Translations under genes and position numbers: made by a program | Shown here: one piece after another, positions 1,250 to 59,838 of the stretch | How positions within the stretch are numbered: the stretch's first letter is position 1 | Layout: the number at the start of each line of letters is the position of its first letter | Notes under the pieces: generated by a model | What the model was told of the DNA's origin: nothing | Database searches by the model: none | Seen by the model: the letters and a program-made list of their open reading frames with translations, nothing else | Assembly (NCBI RefSeq): GCF_003991155.1 | Contig: NZ_CP031294.1 | Strand: one strand, 5' to 3' | From: Escherichia coli | Lineage (GTDB): Bacteria > Pseudomonadota > Gammaproteobacteria > Enterobacterales > Enterobacteriaceae | Length of the DNA: 64,000 bases

Positions 1250-1609
1250 TCAACCTTTCTTCATCAACTCTCGTTTAATTTCATCGGTACGCATCGTAAC
1301 GTCGGCAGCTGTGATCGCCTCGTTAAGCTTCACGATGTCCTCGATTTCCTGCGGTGACTTCTCTGCCAGATGGAAAATGGCTGCTCGAATCACGTCAGAA
1401 CGAGTGAACTTCTCGAAGCGAGGGATGAACTTCATCATCTCCAGCAGTTCGAAGTATTCGTCTTCCAGTGACATTGTGCGGCTTTTAATTTTCTCTTTGC
1501 CACGAGTCGGGCGTCCCTGTGGTCTGACTGGTTGGCGCAAAGGAGTTGTGTTCTTAGCCGGTGCATCAGGCTCTTTGCGCTTTGCTAGGTCACCCATTTT
1601 CATGGACAT
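1250..1609 (-). CDS. small basic protein downstream of parA; candidate centromere-binding partner (ParG/ParB-like), function not verified
   Basis: 119 aa ORF immediately after and translationally coupled to the ParA-type ATPase; basic N-terminus; position typical of type Ib partition operons. Confidence 0.4.
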   Translation of the reverse strand: MSMKMGDLAKRKEPDAPAKNTTPLRQPVRPQGRPTRGKEKIKSRTMSLEDEYFELLEMMKFIPRFEKFTRSDVIRAAIFHLAEKSPQEIEDIVKLNEAITAADVTMRTDEIKRELMKKG

Positions 1610-2277: not shown

Positions 2278-2453
2278 TGGAGAGTTCCCTTTGCGTATAT
2301 AATTATCGTCTGAAACAACTTGTTTTCTTATATGTGATATAGCCTAAATGCCTACGGCTGTGGTGTAAAGGTTAAATGGTAGGTGCTGCCTTAGAATTTT
2401 TAGGCGAGAATTAATGGCTGTTAACAAAAAAGGCGACCAAAGTCGCCTGATTT

Positions 2454-31198: not shown

Positions 31199-31830
31199 TA
31201 TTCGTCCTCCCCTTCACTTCCATCATCTGTCGCATCAAATTCGCTTAGAGCTTCTTCTTCCAACGTCTCAAGCAATTCGTCATCGATGATTTCAGGCTCG
31301 TCGTCTTCCTGACGTAATTTCGCCACCTGGGAAGGCGTAAGCTCACCAAATACCAGGTTCGGAATTTCTTCCTCGTCATTTTCCGCATGATCCATGCCCA
31401 ATGCTTTGGACGAAACTTCAAAGCATTTTGCAAGGGTATTACTGGCTCTCTGTAAGCTCTTGAGAGAATCCTCAATCGCCCCTAAAGGCTTACCCTCACG
31501 TTTGGCCGTAGTGACTTCGACCATCACCATCTGCCCCAACGCATACGCCCAGCCGTCATAACGTGTACGACGTTCTTCTATCTTTTCCGCACGGGCTTTA
31601 GCGCGAAGCTCTGCGTCAGATTTAAGAGACTCACGAACCATCTTCCCAACAGAGTCCGCGCCTTTCTCTAATCCTCGCTTTTTGAAATGTCTGGAGAGTG
31701 TTTCACGACGAATGCCGTACTCTTCCTCCAGCTTTGAGAGTGTATATTCGCCTGACGTCCATTTGGCTTCAGCTTCGGCCCACTCCGCTGGTGTCAGGCG
31801 AGTTTTTACCTCGTCTTTTTCGACCGTCAT
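31198..31830 (-). CDS. terminase small subunit candidate (HTH, acidic C-terminus)
   Basis: 210 aa, start of terminase large subunit overlaps its stop; N-terminal HTH-like segment. Confidence 0.5.
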   Translation of the reverse strand: MTVEKDEVKTRLTPAEWAEAEAKWTSGEYTLSKLEEEYGIRRETLSRHFKKRGLEKGADSVGKMVRESLKSDAELRAKARAEKIEERRTRYDGWAYALGQMVMVEVTTAKREGKPLGAIEDSLKSLQRASNTLAKCFEVSSKALGMDHAENDEEEIPNLVFGELTPSQVAKLRQEDDEPEIIDDELLETLEEEALSEFDATDDGSEGEDE

Positions 31831-31925
31831 AGATCCCTCTAAAACACACAGAGCGCGTCCATGCGCTCTAAAACAACTTGTTTACTGCATCTGCTAACCA
31901 ACTTGTTTTCTGGGGTGTTTAATTA

Positions 31926-33192: not shown

Positions 33193-33854
33193 GAATGGAC
33201 CTCATCATGACTACCATTGTGATATTCCACCTTCACGCGTTCTTTGTAGTGCTTGGTGATCTGCATATCAGGGCGCAGCGCGTTCTTCAGGTCTTCGTGA
33301 GTCGTCGCCACCATTACCGTCGCACCAACCTTTCGAGCGGCACGCTGGAGGTTAGACGCCACAACCTGAGCGGTTACACGGTCGAGAACAGCGCCGAACT
33401 CGTCAGCAGCCCATACTTTAGCGCCTGACTCAATCAGTTTGGCAATCTTGAGACGATATTTCTGGCCGTCTGACATTTCAGAAGGCTTGCGAACAAACAG
33501 ATATGCATCGTTCAGACCAGCCATAGATAACAACCCAAGCGCATCACTGGTCGTTTTGCCCAACTGATCGATGACGTTAACCTCATTATCGAAGGTAAAA
33601 TCATCGATGGAGGCTACAGACAGCCCTTCATCCTTCATCTGTCGTTGCAACTCGCGCAGCACAACGGATTTGCCGGAACCGGATTGGCCGGTGATGTACA
33701 CCACATCGCCCTGCTTCACTTCCAGCTCCAGATTGTCGTAAAGCGTCCACTCTTTTTCGTCCAGGCCAAGCCCGAACGACTCAGCGATTTCCAACGTGCG
33801 CGTGGTTTTATTTACGCGTGTCTGAAACGATACGTTGATGATGTATTTGCTCAT
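33189..33854 (-). CDS. small ABC-type ATPase (nucleotide-binding domain only)
   Basis: Walker A GQSGSGKS, ABC signature LSDGQKYR, Walker B VWAADEFGAVLD, H-loop TTHE. Confidence 0.7.
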   Translation of the reverse strand: MSKYIINVSFQTRVNKTTRTLEIAESFGLGLDEKEWTLYDNLELEVKQGDVVYITGQSGSGKSVVLRELQRQMKDEGLSVASIDDFTFDNEVNVIDQLGKTTSDALGLLSMAGLNDAYLFVRKPSEMSDGQKYRLKIAKLIESGAKVWAADEFGAVLDRVTAQVVASNLQRAARKVGATVMVATTHEDLKNALRPDMQITKHYKERVKVEYHNGSHDEVHS

Positions 33855-34519
33855 GCAGCCATCTCCCCGGAAGAGATCTTCTCCGCATATGCCACAAATG
33901 CGTCTACCCCGCTTTCTCCCGTCATTTCTTCCATATGGGCAAGCAAATCACCAACAACAATGGCAGAGCCAGCAGGGAGCGTTTTAAAGCCCAATACGTC
34001 GACAACACGTACTTCTTCCGCTGCAACTTCACGACTGATCTCGGTGTGTTCATCCTTCTGTCGTTTAGTTTCTTCGCCAAGATCGATAACTAGCGAGTCG
34101 GTGTCCATTTCTTCTGTCATACTGCCAACGAGAACATTCAACTCACGCTCTTCAAAGCCGAAAACCTCGATATCGTCCAGAACAAGCGACTCAAGCTCTT
34201 TCTGTAGCTTAATTGCATCGTAATCAATGCTGGCAAGTCGGTTATCTTCAAGGCGCTTCGCACGAACCTCGTCATCACTGAGATCATCGCGAACAATAAC
34301 CGGTACGCGCTCAAGTCCAGCAAAAATTGCAGCCTCACGGCGGCCGTGGCCAGTAATAATTACGTCGTTCTTATCGACCGTAATTGGCTGGTCAAATCCG
34401 CGCTTTTTAATGGCTGCGGCTAGATCTCGGATCTGCTGTTCATCATGCTTTTTGGCATTCATCTCATAGGGAATAAGATCTGCCGGGTCGCGATATACGA
34501 TTTCAAACTTTTTGGTCAT
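33851..34519 (-). CDS. ParB/Srx-fold domain protein 2
   Basis: Start at ATG overlapping upstream stop (TAATG); ParB N-domain-like QPITVDKNDVIITGHGRREAAIFAGLERVPVIV. Confidence 0.65.
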   Translation of the reverse strand: MTKKFEIVYRDPADLIPYEMNAKKHDEQQIRDLAAAIKKRGFDQPITVDKNDVIITGHGRREAAIFAGLERVPVIVRDDLSDDEVRAKRLEDNRLASIDYDAIKLQKELESLVLDDIEVFGFEERELNVLVGSMTEEMDTDSLVIDLGEETKRQKDEHTEISREVAAEEVRVVDVLGFKTLPAGSAIVVGDLLAHMEEMTGESGVDAFVAYAEKISSGEMAA

Positions 34520-35217
34520 TACATACGCTCCTTGTAGTAGTCGACCAGCCACACCAGAGCCTCACCAGCGTTCTCCATTTCATTACCGGTGTTAATAGCC
34601 TGCTCTTTGATGATGTTTTTTATGGTTTCTGCAACACGATCTGACGCATCGAAAGTTACTTTGAAGCGCATGGTCTGATGTTCCGCACCCACACGTTCGG
34701 TTTTCTCTCGTTTGTCGGTATCGACAGGCTCATCACTACCACGAGACAACGCCTCCAGTGCTTCAAGGTCGATTGCCGCCTCTTTTGCTAAAACCATCGA
34801 GATTTCGTCGTCATACGGAGCGATTTCAGACAGTTGATAGTCAAGTTCTGACTGAATTTCTTCAATGAAGCGTTGCAATGCGATTTGGTCGTCTTCACCG
34901 TATCGCTCGTTGTCCACCAGTGACATCTGTTTAGCTACGACATCGCTAATTTTGCCCACAGAAAGCACCGGAACCGTTGAAATTCCTTGCTCAATAGCAG
35001 CACGCCAGCGATGTTCGCCGCCGAGGATTTCAAAAAATCCATCTTCAAGTTCACGAGCCAAAATTGGCTTAAAAAAGCCCAATTTTTCGATAGAACCTTT
35101 CAGTTTTTCAAAATTCTGCGCACCAACCGAATTGGTGTTCCAGGTATTCGGGCGAAGGTTGGCAACATCAACCTGCAAAATCGTGATTTTTACATCCATT
35201 TTATTGCTACAATCCAC
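34519..35217 (-). CDS. ParB/Srx-fold domain protein 1
   Basis: ParB N-domain-like segment FEILGGEHRWRAAIEQGISTVPV. Confidence 0.65.
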   Translation of the reverse strand: MDCSNKMDVKITILQVDVANLRPNTWNTNSVGAQNFEKLKGSIEKLGFFKPILARELEDGFFEILGGEHRWRAAIEQGISTVPVLSVGKISDVVAKQMSLVDNERYGEDDQIALQRFIEEIQSELDYQLSEIAPYDDEISMVLAKEAAIDLEALEALSRGSDEPVDTDKREKTERVGAEHQTMRFKVTFDASDRVAETIKNIIKEQAINTGNEMENAGEALVWLVDYYKERM

Positions 35218-36843: not shown

Positions 36844-37122
36844 ATGAGTGAAAAGAAAACAACTTACTGTCAGGTAGCATTGTCTGATAAGGCCAATGAC
36901 AAACTTGGAAAGTTTCAAGTGAAACTAAAAGAAAAAAATATCAAAATGTCTAAGGCTGAAGTCATAAATACCATTCTGGAACAATTGACAATGGCCGACT
37001 TTGACAAGGTTATATCTTCTGTCGGGGCTTCCGCTAAGACTCGTGAGAAAATCATGCGTATCTATGAGAACTCTAATATGACAAAGGAAGATCTCAAAAC
37101 GCTATTAAGCAGATTAAAATAA
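36844..37122 (+). CDS. small protein, possible ribbon-helix-helix DNA-binding protein
   Basis: 92 aa, start 3 nt after helicase stop (coupled); RHH assignment tentative. Confidence 0.4.
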   Translation: MSEKKTTYCQVALSDKANDKLGKFQVKLKEKNIKMSKAEVINTILEQLTMADFDKVISSVGASAKTREKIMRIYENSNMTKEDLKTLLSRLK

Positions 37123-37617: not shown

Positions 37618-38142
37618 ATGACAACCAAAGATATTACCTACGGTATCCAAGCTGAACTCTGGCCGCGAGATTACACTAACGTTGAAAAACTACTGATGTT
37701 CTGGCGCAGAGAACAAATTCCTGTAAGGGTCACTCTCGAAGATGGCCAGGCGTTTTGCATGTACGTTTATGGCCTCATGCCATCTCGTAACAAAGTTGAC
37801 CTTTGCCCAGCCCCTTTTGACAAAGAAAATCGTATAAGGCTCCCACTTGAACGCATTAGTACAATTGAATCAGGTGTGGTTGACAGTATCGCTCACGATT
37901 TCAAAGGTCGACTAACAGTTCACCCTGATTATGTCGATAATCGGCCATCACGCCGCGATTTTTTTGCAATTTGCAACCAAGCCTACAAAGCAAACAAATC
38001 TATAAGGGTGTACATGGCGGATGGCCGTGAAATTGAGGGGGTGTCAGCAGGCGCAGATGCTTGTCAGGTTACACTACGTGTCGAGAACGGTAGAAAAATA
38101 GTTGTTTTGTTCGATTGGGTTGAACGAATTTTGCCTTTTTGA
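37618..38142 (+). CDS. hypothetical protein
   Basis: Start set at in-frame ATG just after upstream stop; ORF track 37540..38142. Confidence 0.4.
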   Translation: MTTKDITYGIQAELWPRDYTNVEKLLMFWRREQIPVRVTLEDGQAFCMYVYGLMPSRNKVDLCPAPFDKENRIRLPLERISTIESGVVDSIAHDFKGRLTVHPDYVDNRPSRRDFFAICNQAYKANKSIRVYMADGREIEGVSAGADACQVTLRVENGRKIVVLFDWVERILPF

Positions 38143-40383: not shown

Positions 40384-40460
40384 GCCGTTTCCCGAAAAAA
40401 TCCTGGCCGTTTCCCGTCGGCTCATGAATACGTTCCTCGCCGTTTCTGAAAATTTCCCTG
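40384..40460. repeat. three iteron-like repeats GCCGTTTC(C/T)(C/G)
   Basis: gccgtttcccgaaaaaa / gccgtttcccgtcgg / gccgtttctgaaaatttccctg read directly. Confidence 0.5.
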
Positions 40461-40509
40461 CGGCAGCTGGTGGCTATAGAGAAAGGGCCGTTTCTGGCCC
40501 TCTTCTCAG

Positions 40510-40992
40510 TTACACGCCATCAAGGATGTGGATGCGGTTGCTTGCGTATACATTCAGCATAAAGTTAGCGCAAAACAGTTTCCATGTATCAACGCCAGCG
40601 GTATACGTAATGTTTTTGCATTTAATCGCATTGTTGGCGATCCGCATCCCCTGCGATACTGCTTCATCGTCGGAAAATTTGAACGACGATTGAGTTTTAA
40701 TCCAGACAGAAATCTGCGTAGCGAACTCAATCAGCTTGGACTGGCAGAATCGCCCGGAGCGCACCGGAAAGACGAACGTTCCGAATCCAGAATTTACCAC
40801 ATATGCTTTCTCAAATACCCGCGAGTAACGACGATTGCCAATGATGTCGCGTGCAATAATGCATTTTTCTTGTGCTGACAGTTCTACCGTCTCATTGTCG
40901 CGCCATGCACCAAGTACTCGTTTTTCAATGTCAGAGAACGTTACAGCGATATTGCCATGTGCGGGTGCGTTTACAGTAGCGATAAAATTCAT
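40510..40992 (-). CDS. hypothetical protein
   Basis: 160 aa; conserved family-2 box immediately upstream of start. Confidence 0.55.
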   Translation of the reverse strand: MNFIATVNAPAHGNIAVTFSDIEKRVLGAWRDNETVELSAQEKCIIARDIIGNRRYSRVFEKAYVVNSGFGTFVFPVRSGRFCQSKLIEFATQISVWIKTQSSFKFSDDEAVSQGMRIANNAIKCKNITYTAGVDTWKLFCANFMLNVYASNRIHILDGV

Positions 40993-41009
40993 GATTAATT
41001 CCTTATCGT

Positions 41010-41045
41010 AAATAACAAATTGTTTTCTTGTTGGTGTTAATTATC
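41010..41045 (-). promoter_or_regulatory. family-2 promoter/operator-like box (AACA-N3-TGTT core + TCTTGTTGG extension)
   Basis: aaataacaaattgttttcttgttggtgttaattatc read directly; about 20 bp upstream of ATG 40992. Confidence 0.6.
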
Positions 41046-41167
41046 GTTGTACGAATAAGGCGTCAAAGTGGAAAGTTGCGGTAGCCGGACGGGAACAGGT
41101 GGGTTTGTCGGTTGCCTGGAGGTAAGAGGTTGGTGTTTTTAGCCTGCGGGAAACAGGATGGTCATTT

Positions 41168-41191
41168 AAGGCCACCAGCATTGGTGGCCTT
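41168..41191. terminator. GC-rich hairpin (aaggccaccagcattggtggcctt); near-identical hairpin at 41651-41674
   Basis: Inverted repeat read directly; the two copies share flanks gtcatttaag / ccttaat. Confidence 0.45.
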
Positions 41192-41196
41192 AATCT

Positions 41197-41478
41197 TTAG
41201 TGGAGCAGACCGATGTCGATGGTATCCCCTGAATCATCCACACGGATCATCAGCATGGCAAAGGCGTTTAGTGGATAGCTTGCGTGCCATTCAGGGAAGC
41301 GGTCATCTCGCATGAAGTCGGCAATGTCGTAAACGCATCCCTCAAAGTGGAAGAATCGCGTGCTTACCTGCTCGTCATAATCCACATGATCCATTTCTTG
41401 CTGTTCTGTTTCCGGCAAGTCCAGCCATGATTCAAGAAATACATTTTGTGCTTTAGGGGTAATGGTGAAATCAGTCAT
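41197..41478 (-). CDS. small acidic hypothetical protein
   Basis: Start set at ATG 41478 with GAGGA SD; family-2 box upstream. Confidence 0.5.
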   Translation of the reverse strand: MTDFTITPKAQNVFLESWLDLPETEQQEMDHVDYDEQVSTRFFHFEGCVYDIADFMRDDRFPEWHASYPLNAFAMLMIRVDDSGDTIDIGLLH

Positions 41479-41495
41479 GAGCATATCCTCACTGC

Positions 41496-41529
41496 GTAAA
41501 CATGTTGTTTTCTTGTTGGTGTAATTATC
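41496..41529 (-). promoter_or_regulatory. family-2 promoter/operator-like box
   Basis: gtaaacatgttgttttcttgttggtgtaattatc. Confidence 0.6.
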
Positions 41530-41813
41530 GCAGTGTAGATAAGGCATAAAAGAAGTTAATACAGGCTGAATACACAAGAAAGGTTCTGGAAGTTGATAGC
41601 CAGGTTTCAAACTAACCTTCGGTTATTAAAAGTCATTTAAGACCACCAATGCTGGTGGCCTTAATAATTATCGCCCGATTACGCTAAGGATCTTTTCCTC
41701 AACTGATTTGTTGTTGCGACTAAACTGCCTTGCGTATCTGATGACAGAAGAGGCGTTTTGCTTTCTGACCATCTCGGCTCTTTCCTTCAGGCGTTTCTTG
41801 AAATCGCCCATAT

Positions 41814-42188
41814 TTACCACCAGGCGCAGAAGGTCAGTCTGTTATTGTGAAAGTCGTGGTTCTTAATCAGATCTTCCACAAGCTCTTTCAACTCCCCCAC
41901 ATCATGCCAGTAACCTTCATCGTACTCCTGACTGCCGAAGAAAAAACCTTCCCGGGTAGGCAAGTACTCTTCGCAATTACTTTCGTTTATGTGCATCAAA
42001 TGAGCCTTCAGAAAACAAATGTCATTCATCGTTAATTCTAAAAGCTCACAATTTTCGACTTCACCTACGTTGCGCTCCATCCACCCAACGAGCGCATTGA
42101 ACTTACGGAAGTAAGCAACCTGCTTTCTGGATGCCTCGTTATTCAGATCGTTTTTAGGCTGTGTCTCGATATAGATATCAAGTCCCAT
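41814..42188 (-). CDS. hypothetical protein
   Basis: Start set at ATG 42188 (MGLDIYIE) with AAGGAAA SD. Confidence 0.45.
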   Translation of the reverse strand: MGLDIYIETQPKNDLNNEASRKQVAYFRKFNALVGWMERNVGEVENCELLELTMNDICFLKAHLMHINESNCEEYLPTREGFFFGSQEYDEGYWHDVGELKELVEDLIKNHDFHNNRLTFCAWW

Positions 42189-42242
42189 GATGGTTTCCTT
42201 ATTAAGTTGCTTCAGTGAAATCATTTTCACAAATCAGATAAG

Positions 42243-42266
42243 GCAGAAAACAAATTGTTATCGGGC
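42243..42266. promoter_or_regulatory. family-2 palindrome core (agaaaacaaattgtt), inverted orientation relative to the other copies
   Basis: Read directly. Confidence 0.5.
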
Positions 42267-42305
42267 ATAAGAAAATGGCGCGGTTTACGCGCCATTCAAA
42301 GAGGA

Positions 42306-42701
42306 TTAAGCGAATACGCTTTCAGGGATTAAGGTGTCAGCAGGAATGCCGGAGGTAATGCGCAGGCCGTACTGACCAATCCAGGTAGTGTTGGTATTCA
42401 GGCTGGAGGCGAATACGGTGTTAACCATATTCATCATGGTTTCAAACACCTCTTCATCAACCTGGCGGAAGTAGTTCTCGATTTTCAGCAGCAGCGGGTC
42501 AGTTGCATCGAAAATAGACTGGTATTGAGTCGCGTACTCGCCGCCGGAGGCATCACCTTTACGCACGATCGTACTGGCCTGGACTTCGGCACCAGTTTCG
42601 GTGTTGTACGTAACAACGGTGATTTTTGCCACATTCTTACCTTCGGCGGTTTCAGAGGCATAGTAAACATCAACTGTCAGTTTTTCGCGTTTAACGGTCA
42701 T
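42306..42701 (-). CDS. hypothetical protein
   Basis: Start set at ATG 42701 (MTVKREK) with GGAGAG SD; family-1 palindrome and terminator upstream. Confidence 0.5.
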   Translation of the reverse strand: MTVKREKLTVDVYYASETAEGKNVAKITVVTYNTETGAEVQASTIVRKGDASGGEYATQYQSIFDATDPLLLKIENYFRQVDEEVFETMMNMVNTVFASSLNTNTTWIGQYGLRITSGIPADTLIPESVFA

Positions 42702-42764
42702 TTCACTCTCCGTAGTGTTTTGGTTATTTTTATATTCTATGATCGTAAGTATGTACTTACAATA

Positions 42765-42792
42765 CAAAAAAGCCCCGTAAGGATGGCGGGGC
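42765..42792 (-). terminator. intrinsic terminator (agccccg-taaggatggc-ggggct with T-run on minus strand)
   Basis: Read directly; downstream of gene 42828..43139. Confidence 0.65.
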
Positions 42793-42827
42793 TGTCGTAC
42801 TGTCGACTAATTACCACTTGCACATTA

Positions 42828-43139
42828 TCAGGCTATTGCCATCACTGATGCTCTCTGAATCTCTTGCTGGGCCACGCGGTTAACTTCCATCAAAGCCAGT
42901 TCGAGCTGATGTTCCGGCCACATTCTTTGAAATGCCACCCAGCCTTTTCCACGCTGGCGACGAACATTCATTACATAACGAGTAAAGGTGTATTTATCGA
43001 AAGACACCGCTGTTTCACGGAACAGACGAATAGAGGTTCCATTGGCAACGATGTCCAGCAAAGTTAATTGAGCAACCAGCGCAGGCTTCTCTTTTCTCTT
43101 CTGGTCTTTGTCCAGACCAAGAACCAATGATTTTTTCAT
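42828..43139 (-). CDS. hypothetical protein
   Basis: Start set at ATG 43139 (MKKSLVLG); family-2 box upstream. Confidence 0.5.
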   Translation of the reverse strand: MKKSLVLGLDKDQKRKEKPALVAQLTLLDIVANGTSIRLFRETAVSFDKYTFTRYVMNVRRQRGKGWVAFQRMWPEHQLELALMEVNRVAQQEIQRASVMAIA

Positions 43140-43147
43140 CACAACTC

Positions 43148-43186
43148 CGTAAACAACTTGTTTTCTCAATGGCGTAAATAATACCA
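43148..43186 (-). promoter_or_regulatory. family-2 promoter/operator-like box
   Basis: ccgtaaacaacttgttttctcaatggcgtaaataatacc. Confidence 0.6.
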
Positions 43187-43292
43187 GTAAGAAAACGGCT
43201 ACAAAGCATATTGATCAGGTGCATGAGCGATATGCAGGTTCTTCCCTGCGGCTATAGAGAAATTAAGCCAGCATTGCTGGCTTTGGTTAGGT

Positions 43293-43622
43293 TTACTCGA
43301 ATACTTCAAGAAACTCCTGAACGTCCCAATGCTGGACAAGGTGAAGATAGACCTTAGAAATAACATCATTCTCGCTATCGCATGTGAAGTAGTACTTCTG
43401 GCTGCGGTTGTATGTGTCCACACAAAATTCGCTCATATCCATAAAGTCAGCATCTTCACCCATGTCGCAAATCATCAAAGCAGGTGCGTCATCACGAGTC
43501 ATCAGCTCAAGCACCCACCGCGAATTGATCAGAGTGGAAGACCAACCTTCTAACTCATAAAACTGATCAAACTCTTTTTGAGTTAATTTCTTGATTTGGT
43601 TGATGTCGATATTTGCAAACAT
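43293..43622 (-). CDS. small acidic hypothetical protein
   Basis: Start set at ATG 43622 (MFANIDIN) with AAGGA SD; family-2 box upstream. Confidence 0.5.
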   Translation of the reverse strand: MFANIDINQIKKLTQKEFDQFYELEGWSSTLINSRWVLELMTRDDAPALMICDMGEDADFMDMSEFCVDTYNRSQKYYFTCDSENDVISKVYLHLVQHWDVQEFLEVFE

Positions 43623-43630
43623 AAAGCAAT

Positions 43631-43666
43631 CCTTAAACAACATGTTTTCTTGATGGTGTTATTATC
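43631..43666 (-). promoter_or_regulatory. family-2 promoter/operator-like box
   Basis: ccttaaacaacatgttttcttgatggtgttattatc. Confidence 0.6.
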
Positions 43667-43792
43667 GCAATAACGCACAGGTGAAAAAGGATTTTATTCC
43701 GGTGAATGTGGTTTTGGCAGTGAGTTTTCAGGTTCAGTACCGAGTACACTTTTTACATTATTCTGATTTAGTGGCCGAAGGTGGCTGGTGGG

Positions 43793-44125
43793 CAGAATAA
43801 TCCTCTCCCCGAAAACCTACTGAAATCGATTGTGACCCGTTGGCTGTCTGGCACAATTACGCTGTAACTGGGCATTCAGAGGGAATCCAGCGGTAAGTAA
43901 GTTCGCCTGCACGTGAGCGCCTCTCTTCTTCCCGCACATTACAGGTGGGTAGCCGCAACTCTCCCTCTCGCTATACCGGTACGCCGCCGTTCCTGAACCG
44001 GCATCGAGCCTTCTCCCGAAATCCACACAGGCAACTCGACCGTTTCCCTGAAAACCTCCAGCCGTTCCCCGAAGGCAACCCAGCCGTTTCTGTAGCGGGA
44101 TGCAACCTTTTCCCTGTATGGACCG
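43793..44125. repeat. array of about 7 iteron-like repeats (C(C/T)GTTTCCC(T)GAA-type)
   Basis: ctccccgaaaacc, cttctcccgaaatcc, ccgtttccctgaaaacc, gccgttccccgaagg, gccgtttctgtagc, ccttttccctgtatgg, gccgttcctgaacc read directly. Confidence 0.5.
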
Positions 44126-44229
44126 AAGGCTGACCGTAGGGGTGTTACGGGGGATAAAATCAGGAGTTGAATAAATACGAAAAAGGAGGCGACACCCCTC
44201 CTTCTCTCCCCACTTATACATACCTGGCT

Positions 44230-44830
44230 TCTTCGCTATACATGTTGTGTTTTATTCGTGTTTTATCTGTCTCAACCTCTCTATGGACGTTAATACTCAC
44301 TCCTTCCAGAACGTTCTATACGGCGACTAATTCTGTTGGTGAATTGGGTGTGTTGTTCTCTCTGTCGGTGTATGTGGTTTCGTTCGTTTTGCGGTGGTTC
44401 TTCTATGGGGTGTTCTCGTCGTTTTGGTGATTGTTCTTCTCCGTGTATGGAGTAATGGCAGGTGGGCGATTCCTTTCGTTATTGTGTTTGAGTTGTTTGT
44501 CTGGAGTGCGTGAAGGGCTTTTGTAGTTATTCGTGTGTTGGGTAATGGCGTTTCCCGTGATTGTTCTGTTTCGTGTCTTTTGGGATTGAGAGAAACCTTG
44601 CGGTTACAGGCTTCGTTGGGGTTTCAGTGATTCTGGTGTTTCTTCGCTGTTTGGGTAATGGCGTGTCGTGGGTATCGCGCGTATGGAAGTTTCGAATTGC
44701 CTGTGAAAGTTAGGTTGGTTGTCCGGTAGCCTGAGAAGAAGAGGTGGGTCTTTTCGGTAGCCTGCCATAAAGAGGTTGGTTGTTTTTGGTAATGGCATAT
44801 GTGTTATTTAGTTGTTTTGTTATGCCTGAA
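44230..44830. repeat. strongly strand-skewed (G+T-rich on plus strand) non-coding tract with degenerate ~60-bp repeats (ggtaatggc..., cggtagcctg...)
   Basis: Base composition and repeated words read directly; ORFs in the tract are low-complexity and rejected. Confidence 0.5.
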
Positions 44831-45036
44831 AATAAGTTGTTTATATGGTTATGTAACGCAACGGGAACGATTTTGAGCGTGTGTTTTTGTTGGTAGTGTG
44901 TTGGGTCGTCTGTGGTGAAAATTGGACGCTGTGGCGCTGTCTGCTGCGTAGAATTACGGGTATAAGCAGTGATGTGTGAAAACGTCAATTTTTTAGACCA
45001 AATCGGGTGAAAGCGTTGATGTTTCGTTGATCTGTT

Positions 45037-45074
45037 ATTCAGTTGTTTTCTTATTGGTATAAACAACTGTAACC
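45037..45074. promoter_or_regulatory. family-2-related box with split arms (cagttgttt-N12-aaacaactg)
   Basis: Read directly. Confidence 0.45.
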
Positions 45075-45176
45075 TATTGATATTTAAGGATGTGATTCCA
45101 GGCATGGAAGGGGAGTAGTGGCGATCAACGGATTCTTATAGAAAAGAATCAAATTGTGACCGCCATTATCAATGTT

Positions 45177-45911
45177 TTACTTAGTTTTGTTTAGCAGAGA
45201 GAGAATTTCATCACTAATTTCACTCGCCTGTTTGATAGCCAATGCAGTTACCTCTTCTATGGTTGGTGACTGTTGATGCTCATATTTGGTTTCGGTTATG
45301 ACAATGTGTTCTTCACCAGAATTTGCGCATAGTGCCGCATTGACGATAAGGTTTGAGTAAGAATTTAGCAGAGCACTGTTGATGAACGCTTTCACGGTAT
45401 TACTGTCTGCACCAAATACATCTTTTCTGACCGCTTCAGCCTCACAGCGAACCCCTGCAGCAACATCGTGAAGAACATGTATGGCCTTGGAGCTTGTTTG
45501 TTCACAGTACTCAATCATTATTGTCGAATTGTTCTGTTCAACAAACGATCTGATGCCTGACGATTTACCCATAGCATCGAAGGCAGCGTGACCCGCACTA
45601 GTAGAGATATCTTCATAGAGTTCTTCATCGCTATCTTTTTCTTCAGGTGTCGAGGTGTCTTCATCGTCGTAATAGATATTGCCTTTAATCAGTGTCTTGG
45701 ACACTTGATATAAACAATAAGAAACGAGATTTAAGCATTGGATTTTAGCTGTATTGTCCTTTGTCGCCTCGCTATTCAGTTCTTTCGCTTCTTCAGTAAG
45801 GCTGTTGATAAGACTTTGTATTTTTTCCAACGCGTTAGGTGCACACTCCGCGTTGTCCATAAAGAATTTATAACCAGTCCCAGGGATTTCTAAACTTTTC
45901 AACTTTTTCAT
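45177..45911 (-). CDS. hypothetical protein
   Basis: 244 aa ORF. Confidence 0.5.
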   Translation of the reverse strand: MKKLKSLEIPGTGYKFFMDNAECAPNALEKIQSLINSLTEEAKELNSEATKDNTAKIQCLNLVSYCLYQVSKTLIKGNIYYDDEDTSTPEEKDSDEELYEDISTSAGHAAFDAMGKSSGIRSFVEQNNSTIMIEYCEQTSSKAIHVLHDVAAGVRCEAEAVRKDVFGADSNTVKAFINSALLNSYSNLIVNAALCANSGEEHIVITETKYEHQQSPTIEEVTALAIKQASEISDEILSLLNKTK

Positions 45912-45956
45912 TTCTTTGATAATCCTAAAAACAAACTACCAATGCTTTAATATCTG

Positions 45957-46256
45957 TTACCAGTTCCAGCACTCAAGCCCTTCAACGACCGGCGCACCAC
46001 AATCAAAATGTACAGAGTCAAAGCCTACATCAAGTACTTTCTGAATGTTAGCAATCGCGCCTTCGGATATACCATATCGACGCAAGTCCTCTTTCCAGAC
46101 ATCATCCTGTAACCCAGCGTGGACAATACAACCGCCGTCAATTTGTGAAACCCAATCCAGCTCATTGCTTGCGATCATGAATCGGCGAGCATCTTCCTCT
46201 GATGTATGAGATGAGCTGATCAATGCCACCTGGTAGGCTTGGGTAATGTTCAACAT
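45957..46256 (-). CDS. hypothetical protein
   Basis: 99 aa; two family-2 boxes upstream. Confidence 0.5.
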   Translation of the reverse strand: MLNITQAYQVALISSSHTSEEDARRFMIASNELDWVSQIDGGCIVHAGLQDDVWKEDLRRYGISEGAIANIQKVLDVGFDSVHFDCGAPVVEGLECWNW

Positions 46257-46266
46257 TTCAACAACT

Positions 46267-46340
46267 CCGAAACAATTTGTTTTCTTATGTGGCTTATTAT
46301 CTCAATCAACAAAAGGTAGAAAACAAATTGTTTTAGGGTT
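46267..46340. promoter_or_regulatory. two facing family-2 boxes (46267-46301 and 46315-46340)
   Basis: ccgaaacaatttgttttcttatgtggcttattatc and ggtagaaaacaaattgttttagggtt. Confidence 0.55.
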
Positions 46341-46417
46341 TGTTAAAGTCAGAAGGGGTTGTGTCTATATGAAAATGCCCAGCGTGTTGCCGGGCATTGC
46401 GAACAGAGGTTGTTTAA

Positions 46418-48451
46418 TTACTTAACCTGGTGGCCTGGTTTAGCACCAGCATCCGGGCTTAACAGGAAGATATCTTTCCCGCCGGGGCCAGCAGCCATCA
46501 CCATGCCTTCGGAGATACCGAAGCGCATTTTACGCGGAGCCAGGTTAGCCACCATAATGGTGTGACGACCAATCAGTGCCTGTGGGTCTGGATAAGCAGA
46601 ACGGATGCCTGAGAAGACATTACGCTTTTCACCACCGAGATCCAGTGTCAGACGCAGCAGTTTGTCAGAACCTTCGACAAACTCCGCGTTTTCAATCAGC
46701 GCCACACGCAGGTCAACTTTGGCGAAGTCGTCAAAGGTGATGGTTTCCTGAATCGGGTCGTCAGCCAGTGGGCCAGTTACCGGTGCAGCTGTGGCTTTCA
46801 CTTCTTCTTTGGATGCTTCCACCAGTGCTTCCACCTGTTTCATATCGATACGGTTATACAATGCCTTGAACGGATTCACTTTATGGCCCAGCAGCGGTTG
46901 CTGGATACCATCCCAGGTCAGTTCTGTATTCAGGAATGCTTCTGCACGTTCAGTCAGTTTCGGCAGTACCGGTTTCAAGTACGTCATCAGCACGCGGAAC
47001 AGGTTAATGCCCATAGAGCAAATCGCCTGCAGATCGGCATCGCGTCCTTCCTGCTTCGCCACCACCCACGGAGCCTGTTCATCGACATATCGGTTAGCCA
47101 GGTCAGCCAATGCCATGATTTCACGGATAGCTTTACCAAATTCGCGGCTTTCCCATGCTTCGCCAATCACTTCAGCGGCATCAGTAAAGGTTTTGTACAG
47201 TTGCGGGTCAGCCAGTTCGCTTGCCAGCACGCCGTCAAAACGCTTGTTGATAAAGCCTGCATTACGGGAGGCCAGGTTAACCACTTTGTTCACGATATCG
47301 GCATTCACGCGCTGAACGAAATCCTCCAGGTTGAGATCGATATCATCAATGCGCGAAGAGAGTTTCGCAGTGTAGTAGTAACGCAGGCTGTCGGCGTCAA
47401 AATGATTCAGCCAGGTGCTGGCTTTAATAAAGGTGCCGCGAGACTTGGACATCTTCGCGCCGTTCACCGTCACATAGCCGTGAACAAACAGGTTGGTCGG
47501 CTTGCGGAAGTTGCTGCCTTCCAGCATGGCAGGCCAGAACAGGCTGTGGAAGTAAACAATATCTTTACCGATGAAGTGGTACAGCTCGGCTGTGGAGTCT
47601 TTCTTCCAGTATTCATCGAAGCTGGTGGTATCGCCGCGCTTGTCGCACAGATTCTTGAAGGAACCCATGTAGCCAATCGGCGCGTCCAGCCAGACGTAGA
47701 AATATTTGCCCGGCGCGTTCGGAATTTCAAAACCGAAGTAAGGCGCATCGCGGGAGATATCCCACTGTTGCAGGCCGGATTCAAACCACTCCTGCATTTT
47801 GTTCGCCACCTGCTCCTGCAACGCACCGCTGCGGGTCCATGCCTGCAACATTTCGCTGAAAGAGGGCAGATCAAAGAAGAAGTGTTCGGAATCACGCATT
47901 ACCGGGGTAGCGCCAGAAACCACCGATTTCGGCTCGATCAATTCAGTCGGGCTATATGTTGCGCCGCAGACTTCACAGTTATCGCCGTATTGATCTGGCG
48001 CTTTACATTTCGGGCAGGTGCCTTTCACAAAACGATCCGGCAGGAACATGCCTTTTTCCGGGTCGTACAACTGAGAGATAGTGCGGTTTTTAATAAAACC
48101 GTTCTCTTTCAGGCGAGTATAGATAAGCTCAGACAGCTGGCGGTTCTCTTCGCTGTGCGTCGAGTGATAGTTGTCATAGCTGATGTTAAAGCCTGCGAAA
48201 TCAGTCTGGTGTTCCTGACTCATTTCGCCAATCATCTGCTCCGGTGTGATACCAAGCTGCTGTGCTTTCAGCATGATCGGCGTACCGTGGGCATCGTCGG
48301 CACAGATGAAATTAACCTCGTGGCCGCGCATTCGCTGGTAACGAACCCAGACATCAGCCTGGATGTGCTCCAGCATATGGCCGAGGTGGATTGAGCCGTT
48401 AGCGTACGGCAGCGCGCACGTCACCAGAATTTTCTTCGCGACTTGGGTCAT
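46418..48451 (-). CDS. metG: methionine--tRNA ligase
   Basis: Near-full-length match by recall to enterobacterial MetG: HIGH-type motif [16 protein letters not shown], zinc knuckle CPKC...C..C, C-terminal tRNA-binding domain; start set at MTQVAKK (ATG 48451), the ORF-track start is an upstream artefact. Confidence 0.95.
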
Positions 48452-49745: not shown

Positions 49746-50135
49746 CTACATCACGGGACAATCATCAAACTCGCCACTTCTTGCGTCGTTGATAATGTGA
49801 GTGATCACACCAAACACGGCATTGCTGCCCGTGCATCCATCGTCATCCTTTGGCAATGCTTCCTTCTTACCGGTTCTTAAATCCTCCAGATGCTGACGTG
49901 GGTACTTCCGGTATCTTTTTACGCGATATTCCCCATCCAGAGCGCATACAAGCAGAGAACCATCAACCGGGGTAAGTGAGGAATCGACCACCAGCAATGC
50001 ACCCTGTAATATTCCCTCACGATGATGACTATCAGCTGCCCTCATGAAGTAGGTCGCTGAAGGATGTCTAATTATCTGCTGATCAAGAGAAATACGGCTC
50101 TCAGCATAATCCGCCGCAGGAGAAGGGAAGCCCAT
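49746..50135 (-). CDS. UmuD'-like (pre-cleaved UmuD / HumD-type) S24 peptidase-fold protein
   Basis: Begins M-GFPSPAADY, i.e. at the position of the UmuD self-cleavage product; lacks the N-terminal arm; divergent C-terminal tail. Confidence 0.7.
   Translation of the reverse strand: MGFPSPAADYAESRISLDQQIIRHPSATYFMRAADSHHREGILQGALLVVDSSLTPVDGSLLVCALDGEYRVKRYRKYPRQHLEDLRTGKKEALPKDDDGCTGSNAVFGVITHIINDARSGEFDDCPVM

Positions 50136-52396: not shown

Positions 52397-52400
<4 letters not shown>
50838..52400 (+). CDS. hsdM: Type I restriction-modification N6-adenine DNA methyltransferase subunit
   Basis: NPPY motif ([10 protein letters not shown]), AdoMet-binding motif, 520 aa; operon with hsdS and hsdR. 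Confidence 0.93.
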
Positions 52401-53656
<1,256 letters not shown>

Positions 53657-53777
53657 TTGACCATTGCTACCGACCGGATCACCTTAACATCCGGTCTATA
53701 TAGAGACTATTTTTTACACGCCGGAAGTCGCCCTTAAAGCCCTTCCGGCCCTTGCCAGACGGCACAAAGGATGCGCT

Positions 53778-56700: not shown

Positions 56701-56894
56701 ATGAAGAGGCGGCGAAACGCTATATTCGCACGTCTTTAAAACGCGAATACGCCACCGAAAATGGCACAGAATTAAACGAGACATTACCAAAACTTAGTCC
56801 GTTAAACCCGCAATATAAAACGAAAAAACAGACCGTTTTCCAGAAAATCGTCACGTTTATTGAAAAGTTCAAAGGAGTAGGTGGGCAGATATAG
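53778..56894 (+). CDS. hsdR: Type I restriction enzyme endonuclease/translocase subunit (EcoR124I HsdR-like)
   Basis: 1038 aa; SF2 helicase motifs (TGSGKT, DECHR), N-terminal nuclease domain; sequence recalled as very close to EcoR124I HsdR. Confidence 0.93.
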
Positions 56895-59084: not shown

Positions 59085-59119
59085 CTTAAACAAGTTGTTT
59101 TCTTATTGGCTTTATTGTG
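59085..59119 (-). promoter_or_regulatory. family-2 promoter/operator-like box
   Basis: cttaaacaagttgttttcttattggctttattgtg. Confidence 0.6.
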
Positions 59120-59366: not shown

Positions 59367-59792
59367 TTAGAGATAAGCATCCAGTGACAACTGAAGCGCC
59401 TGGGCGATCTTTTTCAGTGCCTGCTCTTCTTGTTCACCAATGCCATCCTGATCGGCAATATCAAGGCACAGACACAGAACATCGACCGCCTCTGGAGTAC
59501 CCGCAATATCAGACAGCTCACGAATAGCCTGTGCATTAGCAGAACGAGGGGACGCTTCGTAACGAGCACGGATATTGGCGCTCATTTGGGCAATTTCACC
59601 AGCAAACGGAGAAAACGCAGGCAGAGCTGCAATTGTCTTCTCAAGAATGGCAATTTCTTTTGCGTCACATGTGCCGTCGGCATAGGAGATCATGTACGCG
59701 CCCCACACGGTGGCCTCAACCGCATCACGGTTCTCCATTTTTTTGACTTCGATAACTGCTTTACGAGTTTTCTTTTTGAAGAAACCTAACAT
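59367..59792 (-). CDS. TerB-like (tellurite-resistance TerB domain) protein, tentative
   Basis: 141 aa; two D-x-DG-x-x-x-x-E segments (SYADGTCDAKE, IADQDGIGEQEEQA) as in TerB. Confidence 0.45.
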   Translation of the reverse strand: MLGFFKKKTRKAVIEVKKMENRDAVEATVWGAYMISYADGTCDAKEIAILEKTIAALPAFSPFAGEIAQMSANIRARYEASPRSANAQAIRELSDIAGTPEAVDVLCLCLDIADQDGIGEQEEQALKKIAQALQLSLDAYL

Positions 59793-59812: not shown

Positions 59813-59838
59813 GTCAAAACAAGTTGTTTTATAGTTTC
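59813..59838 (-). promoter_or_regulatory. family-2 palindrome (aaaacaagttgtttt)
   Basis: Read directly, about 20 bp upstream of ATG 59792. Confidence 0.55.

What the first reader, a model, noticed from the sequence alone, without database searches (positions are those of the whole stretch)
41010..46340. One ~35-bp promoter/operator-like box in front of at least ten small single-gene units
A conserved element with a 5-3-5 inverted-repeat core (AAACA-NNN-TGTTT), usually extended by TCTT(A/G)TTGG(T/C)...ATTAT, lies 10-25 bp upstream of the start codon of each small minus-strand gene between 40.5 and 46.3 kb. Copies are at 41010, 41496, 42243, 43148, 43631, 45037, 46267 and 46315, with further copies at 31868 and 31896 upstream of the small terminase and at 59085 and 59813 beyond the R-M operon. 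Most copies share one orientation relative to the gene, but 42243 and 46315 are inverted, which fits a protein-binding operator better than a bare promoter. Together with the repeated terminator hairpins this gives a cassette-like array of [box-gene-terminator] units, as if one regulator controls a regulon of small, mostly acidic accessory proteins (candidate anti-defence or host-takeover genes).
Basis: seen in the sequence. Interest (0 to 1): 0.75.

Follow-up and report, generated by a model that had tools for sequence, protein, structure and literature searches.

The report
Repeated promoter-operator box of a phage-plasmid
A 13-base palindrome (AAACAA-N-TTGTTT) built into a stereotyped promoter and leader heads about sixteen transcription units of this SSU5-type phage-plasmid; it most likely is the operator through which one still unidentified regulator keeps the whole lytic programme, not just the small accessory genes, silent while the element lives as a plasmid.

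Summary
The window is an E. coli SSU5/pLF82-type phage-plasmid. The box core is a 6-1-6 palindrome, AAACAA-N-TTGTTT. It occurs 9 times exactly and 16 times with at most 1 mismatch in the 110-kb plasmid, against 0.04 and 0.8 in shuffles, and every copy is intergenic.

The box is part of a ~70-bp module. This has no usable -35, a (TGn)GATAAT -10, an A-rich leader AAGAAAACAA, and the palindrome in one of two places. It starts 13-14 bp after the -10 (about +13) or ends 19 bp before it (about -38). Some promoters have both, 51 bp apart.

The module heads six accessory cassettes. It also precedes the DnaB-like helicase, cobT, nrdB, parA and the terS late operon.

The same box is unchanged in SSU5, two Klebsiella lineages and Yersinia pMT1. 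It is absent from a Moellerella relative.

Published RNA-seq of the 98%-identical phage Cyrano shows box-headed genes at background in the lysogen.

Best reading: a DNA operator for an element-encoded repressor, giving a P1-C1-like dispersed-operator regulon. The binder is unknown. An RNA-level operator for the element's FljA-like translational repressor is the main rival. Anti-defence roles are unsupported.

The parts
41013..41025 (-). box (TAACAAATTGTTT on the + strand, 1 mismatch) at about +13 of the promoter of gene 40510-40992; -10 GATAAT at 41040-41045
41498..41510 (-). box at about +13 of the promoter of gene 41197-41478; TGcGATAAT -10 at 41524-41529
42248..42260 (-). inverted box at the upstream position (ends 19 nt before the TGtGAAAAT -10) of gene 41814-42188; no downstream palindrome
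   Evidence: orthologous copies SSU5 85608 and pJN2-26 21779
43151..43163 (-). box at about +13 of the promoter of gene 42828-43139; -10 TATTAT at 43178-43183
43635..43647 (-). box at about +13 of the promoter of gene 43293-43622; TGcGATAAT -10 at 43661-43666
46270..46282 (-). downstream box of the promoter of gene 45957-46256; -10 GATAAT at 46297-46302
46321..46333 (-). upstream inverted partner of the same promoter, centre 51 bp from the box at 46270-46282
   Evidence: the same 51-bp pairs occur in SSU5 (88325/88376) and CP027615 (19516/19567); pJN2-26 28545 keeps the spacing with only a downstream half-box
44830..44842 (.). box-like copy (AAATAAGTTGTTT, 1 mismatch) inside the 1.5-kb non-coding stretch; conserved counterparts in SSU5 (90746) and pJN2-26 (25875)
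45037..45049 (-). half-box only (leader motif AAGAAAACAAC, no right arm)
31871..31908 (-). two tandem boxes (31871-31883 exact; 31896-31908 with 1 mismatch; centres 25 bp apart) downstream of a TAATTA -10, ahead of terS (31198-31830) and the ~30-kb late operon
   Evidence: conserved in SSU5 and pMT1, single box in Klebsiella
31849..31870 (-). G+C-rich hairpin plus T-run (terminator-like) between the double box and the terS start codon
   Evidence: stem conserved with variable loop in SSU5, pJN2-26 and pMT1
59088..59100 (-). box at the promoter of gene 58500-59069
59817..59829 (-). box at the promoter of the TciA-like gene 59367-59792
2313..2325 (-). box in the parA promoter (ParA 1609-2277, small basic partner 1250-1603), followed after 5 nt by a second CGATAAT -10, so centred near -24 of that promoter
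   Evidence: conserved in SSU5, pJN2-26 and CP027615
41166..41193 (-). hairpin TTAAGGCCACCA..TGGTGGCCTTAA closing the unit 41197-41478; a near-identical copy at 41637-41664 closes the next unit; a further hairpin lies at 43265-43283
37618..38142 (+). FljA-like protein (Pfam PF03614), candidate trans-acting factor under the RNA-level rival
1250..1603 (-). 117-aa basic partner of ParA (ParG-like by sequence pattern), candidate DNA-level binder

Best explanation
The box is the operator of a stereotyped promoter-operator-leader module that SSU5-family phage-plasmids place in front of most transcription units of their lytic programme.

On the gene strand the module reads as follows:
- a T-rich/CCTT(A/T)T stretch with no usable -35;
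- a -10 of the GATAAT or TATTAT type, often preceded by TGn;
- a conserved start region (CACCAAC);
- an A-rich leader, AAGAAAACAA.

The 13-bp palindrome AAACAA-N-TTGTTT has a free central base and takes one of two fixed positions. In one it begins 13-14 bp after the -10, at about +7 to +19, and uses the leader's AAACAA as its left arm. In the other it ends 19 bp before the -10, at about -44 to -32, turned so that its AGA flank again faces the -10. Some promoters have both, 51 bp (about five helical turns) apart.

I propose that a dimeric DNA-binding repressor encoded by the element occupies the palindrome. From the upstream site it would exclude RNA polymerase, and from the downstream site it would block open-complex formation or promoter escape. 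Replication, nucleotide-metabolism, accessory and late genes would then be held off together in the plasmid-prophage state and released together on induction.

Shown: the motif, its enrichment, its fixed geometry, its conservation across diverged lineages, and the silence of box-headed genes in a lysogen.

Inferred: the transcription start, protein binding at the DNA level, the repressive sign, and the identity of the binder, which is unknown.
For: Enrichment: 9 exact and 16 near-exact copies against 0.04 and 0.8 in shuffles, all intergenic.

Geometry: a -10-like hexamer lies 12-14 nt upstream of the palindrome in 56 of 100 scorable instances, with TGn in 41. Canonical -35/-10 scans do not pick these promoters. 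Upstream copies always end 19 nt before the -10, and pairs are always 51 bp apart. Promoters with an upstream palindrome keep only the half-box leader downstream. So each promoter carries at least one full palindrome, at one of the two positions.

Symmetry: the central base is unconstrained (G43, A31, T30, C27). Departures fall at mirror-image positions. None of 131 instances shows a compensatory change. The leaders fold no better than shuffles, with z between -0.4 and +1.4. There is no Rfam match.

Conservation: the box sequence is unchanged in four relatives, and the central base differs between orthologous dnaB promoters.
- SSU5: 20 copies.
- Klebsiella pJN2-26: 17 copies.
- The distant Klebsiella lineage CP027615: 21 copies.
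- pMT1: 6 copies.

Expression: in the 98%-identical phage Cyrano, box-headed genes are at background in the lysogen (median 9.8).
- terS 7.1, cobT 7.8, nrdB 12.9, helicase 21.
- CYRAN_101 7.5, 105 12.8, 106 12.2, 110 6.7, 111 25.5.
- Box-less genes on the other strand are expressed.

The same phage is induced 39-fold by ciprofloxacin (PMC9928086).
Against: No transcription start has been mapped, and no protein has been shown to bind.

The box is not used symmetrically. Most copies have one orientation. The AAGA flank is one-sided. The left arm is better kept than the right, with 13 against 38 departures. A symmetric dimer does not need any of this; it has to be put down to promoter or leader constraints.

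No candidate DNA-binding protein fits the distribution of the box.
- The ParA partner is missing from pMT1, which keeps boxes, and present in the Moellerella plasmid, which has none.
- The XRE-type 'putative repressor' of Cyrano is absent from SSU5.
- The ParB-like proteins and the 88-aa wHTH are silent in the lysogen.

The parA operon carries a box yet is expressed 5-9 times above background in the lysogen.

Silence in the lysogen could equally mean that an activator is missing.
Confidence: 0.5

Rival explanations
1. RNA-level operator. The conserved leader (AAGAAAACAA plus, usually, N-UUGUUU) is the binding site on the 5' untranslated region for the element's FljA-like protein (37618-38142). 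FljA is the Salmonella repressor that binds the fliC leader and blocks its translation (from my knowledge of Aldridge et al. 2006 and Yamamoto & Kutsukake 2006, which I could not read here). The phage-plasmid would use a copy of it to silence its lytic mRNAs after transcription.
For: The protein matches Pfam PF03614 (Flag1_repress) over its full length, E = 1.7e-84.

It lies on the strand of lysogeny-expressed genes. In Cyrano it reads 18 in overnight LB and log2 7-8 in the other conditions.

It is kept at 79% identity in plasmids of Klebsiella. From general knowledge K. pneumoniae is non-flagellate, so flagellin cannot be its target there.

Its distribution matches the box in all six lineages compared. 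It is present in E. coli, SSU5, pJN2-26, CP027615 and pMT1, and absent from the box-less Moellerella plasmid. Among genes with that pattern it is the only one with a regulatory family.

The box sits between the predicted start and the Shine-Dalgarno sequence in one orientation. Its one-sided flank and better-kept 5' half are what single-strand recognition would give.
Against: The palindrome is unexplained. There is no stable hairpin, and 0 of 131 instances keep pairing through change.

The upstream copies at -38 lie outside the mRNA of the gene they precede, yet hold a fixed distance to the -10.

Box-headed mRNAs are at background in the lysogen. Translational repression alone does not predict that.

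The FljA-like protein is only 33% identical in CP027615, where the box is unchanged.

Similarity to the natural FljA target is weak. The Salmonella and Citrobacter fliC leader shares only CAAGTTGT and breaks an invariant box position. The E. coli fliC leader has nothing.

The co-occurrence rests on a single box-less lineage.
Confidence: 0.2
2. The binder is the small basic partner of ParA (1250-1603), a ParG-like centromere-binding protein. The boxes would then double as dispersed partition and silencing sites, as sopC sites do in N15 and OB sites do for KorB in RK2.
For: A box sits in the parA promoter in every box-bearing lineage that has this par locus.

The operon is expressed in the lysogen: ParA 50, partner 89, against a median of 9.8.

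The protein has a basic, disordered tail (RPQGRPTRGK). Two stretches, IKSRTMS(L/I)EDE and RSDVIRAAI, are invariant from 100% down to 48% identity, which matches the invariance of the box.

It has a weak hit to an RHH family (aCcr1, E = 2e-4, below the curated cut-off).
Against: pMT1 keeps six boxes but has no homologue of this protein or of its ParA.

The Moellerella plasmid keeps the protein, with KSRTVSMEDE, but has no box. Its parA promoter has AATAACAAGGC direct repeats instead.

Type Ib centromeres are normally repeat arrays, not single sites.
Confidence: 0.15
3. Positive control. The box is a recognition element for an element-encoded activator or sigma-like factor made only after induction, and the promoters are silent in lysogens for lack of it.
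For: There is no usable -35. Box-headed genes are silent in the lysogen. An upstream position near -38 would suit a class II activator.
Against: Most copies lie downstream of the only plausible -10, and only 6-42 nt from the start codon. That leaves no room for a promoter downstream of them. The downstream sequences hold no conserved -10. No RNA polymerase or sigma gene is annotated in the element.
Confidence: 0.08
4. The copy number reflects spread of a mobile promoter cassette that serves as a homology patch for shuffling small genes, as PeSL elements do in T4-type phages, rather than common regulation. This is not exclusive of the other readings.
For: The array is a series of [promoter-box, small ORF, hairpin] units. 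Its gene content differs between E. coli, SSU5, pJN2-26 and CP027615 while the boxes stay. Genes 41814-42188, 43293-43622 and 45177-45911 have no SSU5 counterpart.
Against: The box also heads conserved core genes at orthologous positions. There the flanks have diverged but the palindrome has not, which points to selection on the site itself.
Confidence: 0.07

Closest known systems
Phage-plasmid P1: C1 repressor with operators dispersed over the genome (own knowledge; Lobocka et al. 2004)
   Same: A plasmid prophage in which one short operator recurs at many promoters scattered over about 100 kb. Replication (ban helicase), accessory and late-control genes are held off together.
   Different: The P1 operator is an asymmetric 17-mer (ATTGCTCTAATAAATTT) overlapping the promoter hexamers. 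Here the site is a 13-bp perfect palindrome at +13 or -38, inside a stereotyped promoter and leader. No C1 homologue was recognised and the binder is unknown.
Stoperators of Cluster A mycobacteriophages (L5 gp71)
   Same: Tens of 13-14-bp sites lie in short intergenic regions, mostly in one orientation relative to transcription and downstream of starts. They silence the lytic genes of a prophage.
   Different: Stoperators are asymmetric, act on elongating polymerase, and are not tied to a -10. This box is palindromic and holds a fixed distance to a -10.
PeSL (promoter-early stem-loop) cassettes of T4-type phages (Arbiol, Comeau & Krisch 2010; own knowledge)
   Same: A repeated promoter plus a hairpin frames small ORFs of unknown function in a plastic region, giving a [promoter-ORF-hairpin] array whose content varies between relatives.
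   Different: PeSLs have no operator palindrome and are confined to hyperplastic regions. This box also heads core replication, partition and late operons.
KorB OB operators of IncP plasmids and dispersed sopC sites of phage-plasmid N15
   Same: OB is likewise a 13-bp 6-1-6 palindrome (TTTAGC-S-GCTAAA) scattered at about 12 promoters. The N15 centromere repeats lie in lytic promoters and affect their expression.
   Different: Those sites are bound by ParB-family proteins made in the plasmid state. Here the two ParB-like genes are silent in the lysogen, and the par locus is a ParA/ParG-like type Ib pair.
FljA-fliC leader control in Salmonella
   Same: A homologue of FljA is encoded here, and the box lies in predicted 5' leaders just upstream of the Shine-Dalgarno sequence.
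   Different: FljA has one known target. Similarity between the box and the fliC leader is limited to CAAGTTGT. RNA binding by the plasmid protein is untested.

Membership tests
Canonical sigma-70 promoter | -35 TTGACA-like hexamer 16-18 bp from a TATAAT-like -10 | tested here: not met
   The consensus scan finds none of the box promoters. A -10 is present (GATAAT 31, TATTAT 22 of 100) but no -35.
Extended -10 promoter | TGn immediately upstream of the -10 | tested here: inconclusive
   TGn is present in 41 of 100 instances that have a recognisable -10.
Dispersed-operator immunity regulon (P1 C1 type) | One operator sequence repeated at many promoters across the element | tested here: met
   16 copies in this plasmid and 17-21 in relatives, all intergenic and promoter-linked.
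Dispersed-operator immunity regulon (P1 C1 type) | Operator-headed genes are silent in the lysogen | tested here: met
   Cyrano RNA-seq table (PMC9928086 S1): box-headed genes read 5.7-25 against a median of 9.8. The exception is the parA operon at 50-89.
Dispersed-operator immunity regulon (P1 C1 type) | A cognate repressor that binds the operator | not testable with these tools
   No binding data exist. The candidates conflict with the phyletic pattern or with expression.
Dispersed-operator immunity regulon (P1 C1 type) | P1 operator sequence ATTGCTCTAATAAATTT | tested here: not met
   The box is AAACAA-N-TTGTTT. The P1 consensus is quoted from memory.
Structured RNA element or known RNA family | Stable fold, covariation, or an Rfam match | tested here: not met
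   No Rfam match in the window. Leader folds have z from -0.4 to +1.4. No compensatory changes in 131 instances.
KorB/ParB-type operator | 13-bp 6-1-6 palindrome scattered at promoters | tested here: met
KorB/ParB-type operator | ParB-family binder expressed in the plasmid state | tested here: not met
   The ParB-like genes (33851-35199; CYRAN_119 and 120) read 5.0 and 9.5, which is background.
FljA-controlled leader | FljA-family protein encoded by the element | tested here: met
   PF03614, E = 1.7e-84.
FljA-controlled leader | Leader resembles the fliC operator, or binds the protein | tested here: inconclusive
   Only CAAGTTGT is shared with the Salmonella and Citrobacter fliC leader, and nothing with the E. 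coli one. Binding is not testable here.
T4 RegA translational operator | RegA homologue present | tested here: not met
   tblastn with T4 RegA (sequence from memory) finds nothing below E = 0.9 in three genomes.
PeSL-like mobile promoter cassette | Promoter plus hairpin framing small variable ORFs | tested here: met
PeSL-like mobile promoter cassette | Confined to plastic regions | tested here: not met
   The box also lies before dnaB, cobT, nrdB, parA and terS.

The most novel reading that the evidence does not exclude
The conserved leader and box form an RNA operator for the element's FljA-like protein. A repressor family known only for switching flagellin would then have been taken over by a whole family of phage-plasmids, including those of non-flagellate Klebsiella, to hold their lytic mRNAs untranslated. 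The palindrome would serve a second, DNA-level layer.
Probability: 0.15. Interest if true: 0.8.

Novelty: new member of a known kind. Interest (0 to 1): 0.5.

Why it matters
SSU5-type phage-plasmids (pHCM2 of S. Typhi, pMT1 of Y. pestis, pLF82/Cyrano, and many Klebsiella and E. coli plasmids, some carrying resistance genes) are common. About 800 PLSDB records carry their par locus. Their lysis-lysogeny control is essentially undescribed: I found no paper that mentions this box.

The box gives a ready map of the lytic regulon, about 16-21 promoters per genome. It also gives a precise bait (AAACAA-N-TTGTTT) for finding the regulator, and a simple reporter design. It shows that the small cassette genes are co-regulated with replication and packaging genes rather than forming a regulon of their own.

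If the binder proves to be the partition protein or the FljA-like protein, the system would link plasmid maintenance or translational control to prophage immunity in a new way.

Tried and rejected
- RNA structure: the leaders fold no better than shuffles, there is no covariation and no Rfam match.
- Sigma-28 reading of 'GCGATAA': the -35 TAAA is absent, and the E. coli fliC promoter and leader (L130) do not resemble the module.
- T4 RegA-type operator: no RegA homologue.
- P1-late-type promoter (inverted repeat at -22 upstream of a -10): only the parA promoter has a -10 after the palindrome. The other copies have no -10 downstream.
- Cyrano's annotated 'putative repressor' (XRE type, next to the integrase): it is absent from SSU5, and its own control region has a different palindrome, GGTAAGCACTTACC.
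- ParB-like proteins and the 88-aa wHTH: silent in the lysogen.
- 92-aa RHH-like protein (36844-37122): it is expressed in the lysogen, but its putative DNA-reading strand varies between lineages, and its own promoter carries the TAAGTA palindrome rather than the box.
- Cross-family test: an exact-box scan of IMG/VR gave 120 loci. 55 were SSU5-like; none of the others encoded any of the candidate proteins (tblastn).
- Homologues of the ParA partner and of the FljA-like protein were found almost only in SSU5-like contigs, so they gave no independent context.
- Structure of the ParA partner: uninformative.
- Structure of gene product 40510-40992: a confident model with no PDB neighbour.
- Anti-defence assignment of the array proteins: no PADLOC or named PHROG hit.
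- Host-factor reading: the E. coli chromosome could not be scanned for the 13-mer with these tools. I recall no E. coli regulator with this consensus.

Full report
**What the window is.** Positions 40400-46500 are 100% identical to E. coli plasmid NZ_OW849379.1 and 98% identical to phage-plasmid Cyrano (pLF82). Weaker matches go to Klebsiella phage-plasmids and Salmonella phage SSU5. Window position equals record position minus 32000, with small indels later, in hsdS. Nearly all genes are on the minus strand. To see the whole element I joined the rest of that record to the window, giving 110,667 bp.

**The observation.** The pattern AAACANNNTGTTT occurs 9 times in the window against 0.24 expected; 0 of 100 shuffles reached that count.

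Aligned on the gene strand, the core is a 6-1-6 palindrome, AAACAA-N-TTGTTT. In the whole plasmid it occurs 9 times exactly and 16 times with at most one mismatch. Fifty dinucleotide shuffles gave 0.04 and 0.8. All 16 copies are intergenic.

Three corrections apply. Site 45037 is only a half-site. The copies at 2313 and 44830 were missed. Only six genes of the 40.5-46.3 kb array carry the box.

**Anatomy.** I aligned 27 copies from this plasmid and SSU5, and later 128 distinct copies from SSU5-like genomes. Conservation runs from a -10 hexamer to the end of the palindrome: (TGn)GATAAT, two bases, CACCAAC, AAGA, then AAACAA-N-TTGTTT, usually followed by A.
- The hexamer ends 12-14 nt before the palindrome in 56 of 100 scorable cases.
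- TGn precedes the hexamer in 41 of those.
- The start codon follows the palindrome by 6-42 nt, median 19.
- There is no usable -35, and the consensus scanner misses these promoters.

Taking the usual 7-nt distance from a -10 to the start, transcription would begin at the A of CCAAC. The palindrome would then span about +7 to +19. This start is inferred, not mapped.

The 'inverted' copies (42248, 46321, and their orthologues in SSU5, pJN2-26 and CP027615) occupy a second fixed position. They end exactly 19 nt before the -10, at about -44 to -32, and their AGA flank points toward the -10. Where both positions are filled, the centres are 51 bp apart in every case seen.

Promoters with an upstream palindrome often keep only the leader half (AAGAAAACAA) downstream. 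Each promoter of this class therefore has at least one complete palindrome, at one of two positions.

**Which genes.** In this plasmid the module heads the following units:
- six accessory cassettes of the array;
- genes 58500-59069 and 59367-59792 (TciA-like);
- parA;
- the terS late operon, with two tandem boxes and then a conserved hairpin plus T-run;
- outside the window: the DnaB-like helicase, cobT, nrdB and a 141-aa gene.

So this is not a regulon of small acidic proteins. Two of the six box-headed array proteins are basic. None matches a defence or anti-defence family or any named PHROG.

**Conservation.** The box sequence is the same, and lies at orthologous promoters, in these relatives:
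- SSU5: 20 copies with at most 1 mismatch.
- Klebsiella pJN2-26: 17 copies.
- A distant Klebsiella lineage, CP027615/L134: 21 copies, with core proteins 50-70% identical.
- The degraded relative pMT1 of Y. pestis: 6 copies.

At the dnaB promoter the flanks differ and the central base is T, A, C and G in four lineages, while the arms are intact.

Over 131 distinct instances the central base is free. Departures fall at mirror-image positions, and none is compensatory. A Moellerella SSU5-like plasmid has no box at all; its three one-mismatch hits lie in coding sequence.

**DNA or RNA?** Several results point to double-stranded DNA recognised by a symmetric protein:
- the perfect palindrome with a free centre;
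- the absence of covariation;
- leaders that fold no better than shuffles, and no Rfam match;
- the two fixed positions relative to the -10, one of them outside the transcript, with 51-bp phasing.

Against a purely symmetric reading, the AAGA flank is one-sided and the left arm is better kept than the right (13 against 38 departures). I attribute this to the arm also being the start of the leader.

**Sign of control.** The Cyrano transcriptome table (PMC9928086, supplement) gives a median of 9.8 for prophage genes in overnight LB. Box-headed genes sit at that level: terS 7.1, cobT 7.8, nrdB 12.9, helicase 21, and array genes 6.7-25.5.

Box-less genes on the other strand are expressed. Examples are repA 133, HumD 148, the helicase/92-aa/FljA-like operon 18-114, and the toxin-antitoxin pairs. 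Cyrano virions rise 39-fold with ciprofloxacin.

Silence in the lysogen, together with sites at +13 and -38, fits a repressor. A missing activator is not excluded, but it fits the +13 position badly.

**Who binds?** This is unresolved.

The small basic partner of ParA (1250-1603) is attractive. A box sits in the parA promoter in every box-bearing lineage that has this par locus. The protein is expressed in the lysogen at 89. It keeps two invariant stretches down to 48% identity. However, pMT1 keeps boxes without it, and the Moellerella plasmid keeps it without boxes. Its presumed ribbon-helix-helix fold could not be confirmed.

The FljA-like protein (37618-38142; Pfam PF03614, E = 1.7e-84) is the only gene with a regulatory family whose presence tracks the box across all six lineages compared. 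From my own knowledge K. pneumoniae lacks flagella, yet Klebsiella plasmids retain this protein, so its target is not flagellin. FljA is known, again from my own knowledge, as a binder of the fliC mRNA leader. This supports the RNA-level rival.

That rival has weaknesses. It leaves the palindrome, the upstream copies and the low mRNA levels unexplained. The protein is only 33% identical where the box is unchanged. The fliC leaders share at most CAAGTTGT with the box.

Other candidates fare worse:
- The 88-aa wHTH and the ParB-like proteins are silent in the lysogen.
- Cyrano's annotated repressor is missing from SSU5.
- Gene product 40510-40992 shares the phyletic pattern and heads itself with a box, but it has no recognisable fold relative.

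**Comparison with known systems.** In logic the closest is phage-plasmid P1, where one repressor acts on operators scattered over the genome. Mycobacteriophage stoperators are next. In layout the array resembles the PeSL cassettes of T4-type phages. In site form the box resembles the 13-bp KorB operators. It differs from each in sequence, in its symmetry and fixed geometry around a -10, and in having no identified binder.

Full-text searches for the sequence and for SSU5 regulation found no description of it. I therefore class it as a new member of a known kind.

**Verdict.** The operator idea is supported, but the regulon is the lytic programme at large. I give a DNA operator for an element-encoded repressor 0.5, an RNA operator for the FljA-like protein 0.2, and the rest to other readings.

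Noticed in passing
window 37618-38142 (+): Full-length homologue of FljA, the 'repressor of phase-1 flagellin' (Pfam PF03614, E = 1.7e-84). It lies in a plus-strand operon with a UvsW-like helicase, a 92-aa protein and a lipoprotein. It is conserved in SSU5, pMT1 and Klebsiella plasmids (33-83% identity) and absent from the Moellerella relative.
   Followed up: partly
window 9505, 22929, 28420, 35218, 42746; also record positions 14260, 20060, 22556, 26072, 99743 of NZ_OW849379.1: A second repeated palindrome family, TAAGTA-N2-6-TACTTA, with ten copies in the plasmid. Most lie in promoter-like intergenic spots, including the promoter of the box-less array gene 42306-42701 and the helicase/FljA-like operon promoter at 35218. 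Unlike the box, it is also present in the Moellerella plasmid.
   Followed up: partly
window 43700-45150: A 1.5-kb stretch without convincing genes; Cyrano annotates two ORFs here, both silent. It is full of degenerate direct repeats (units ending GGTAATGGC, a CGGTAGCCTG..GAGGT pair). It holds a conserved box-like copy at 44830 and a half-box at 45037. About 170 bp (44310-44480) are conserved with an unannotated part of SSU5. It could be an origin or iteron field, or a non-coding RNA region.
   Followed up: partly
window 31849-31870 (-): A conserved G+C-rich hairpin followed by GTGTGTTTT sits between the double box and the terS start. The stem is kept and the loop varies in SSU5, pJN2-26 and pMT1. 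It may be a terminator or antitermination point that delays the late operon.
   Followed up: partly
window 46297-46400 (+): Read on the plus strand, the -10 region of gene 45957-46256 is TATTAT followed after 20 nt by the inverted box. The metG bidirectional terminator lies about 60 nt further on. A ~90-nt divergent transcript carrying a box is conceivable. The same arrangement exists in SSU5.
   Followed up: no
window 1250-2277 (-): A type Ib-like partition pair: a 222-aa ParA and a 117-aa basic partner with a disordered arginine-rich tail. The ~130-bp region upstream of parA is almost identical in E. coli, SSU5 and pJN2-26. pMT1 lacks this pair and has a P1-type ParAB instead.
   Followed up: partly
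[not shown]
   Followed up: partly
window 36844-37122 (+): A 92-aa protein with a ribbon-helix-helix-like N-terminus (CQVxL strand followed by two helices). It is expressed 12 times above background in the Cyrano lysogen (CYRAN_117).
   Followed up: partly
window 49746-50135 (-): A HumD-type UmuD' homologue (NCBIfam equivalog, E = 8e-66), strongly expressed in the Cyrano lysogen (148). It is annotated there as a 'LexA-like peptidase'.
   Followed up: partly
window 41166-41193 and 41637-41664: Near-identical 28-bp hairpins (TTAAGGCCACCA-loop-TGGTGGCCTTAA) close two neighbouring cassettes. Similar GGCC hairpins directly precede the upstream boxes in SSU5 and Klebsiella relatives.
   Followed up: no
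window 52397-56894: The type I R-M genes differ from the otherwise identical record NZ_OW849379.1 by a 12-nt insertion in hsdS and a further 7-nt offset downstream, so the window comes from a close relative of that plasmid, not from it.
   Followed up: no
L151 15348-15420 (Moellerella plasmid, upstream of parA): In the box-less relative the parA leader carries two direct repeats of AATAACAAGGC about 21 nt apart. Each resembles half a box (A-AACAA).
   Followed up: no
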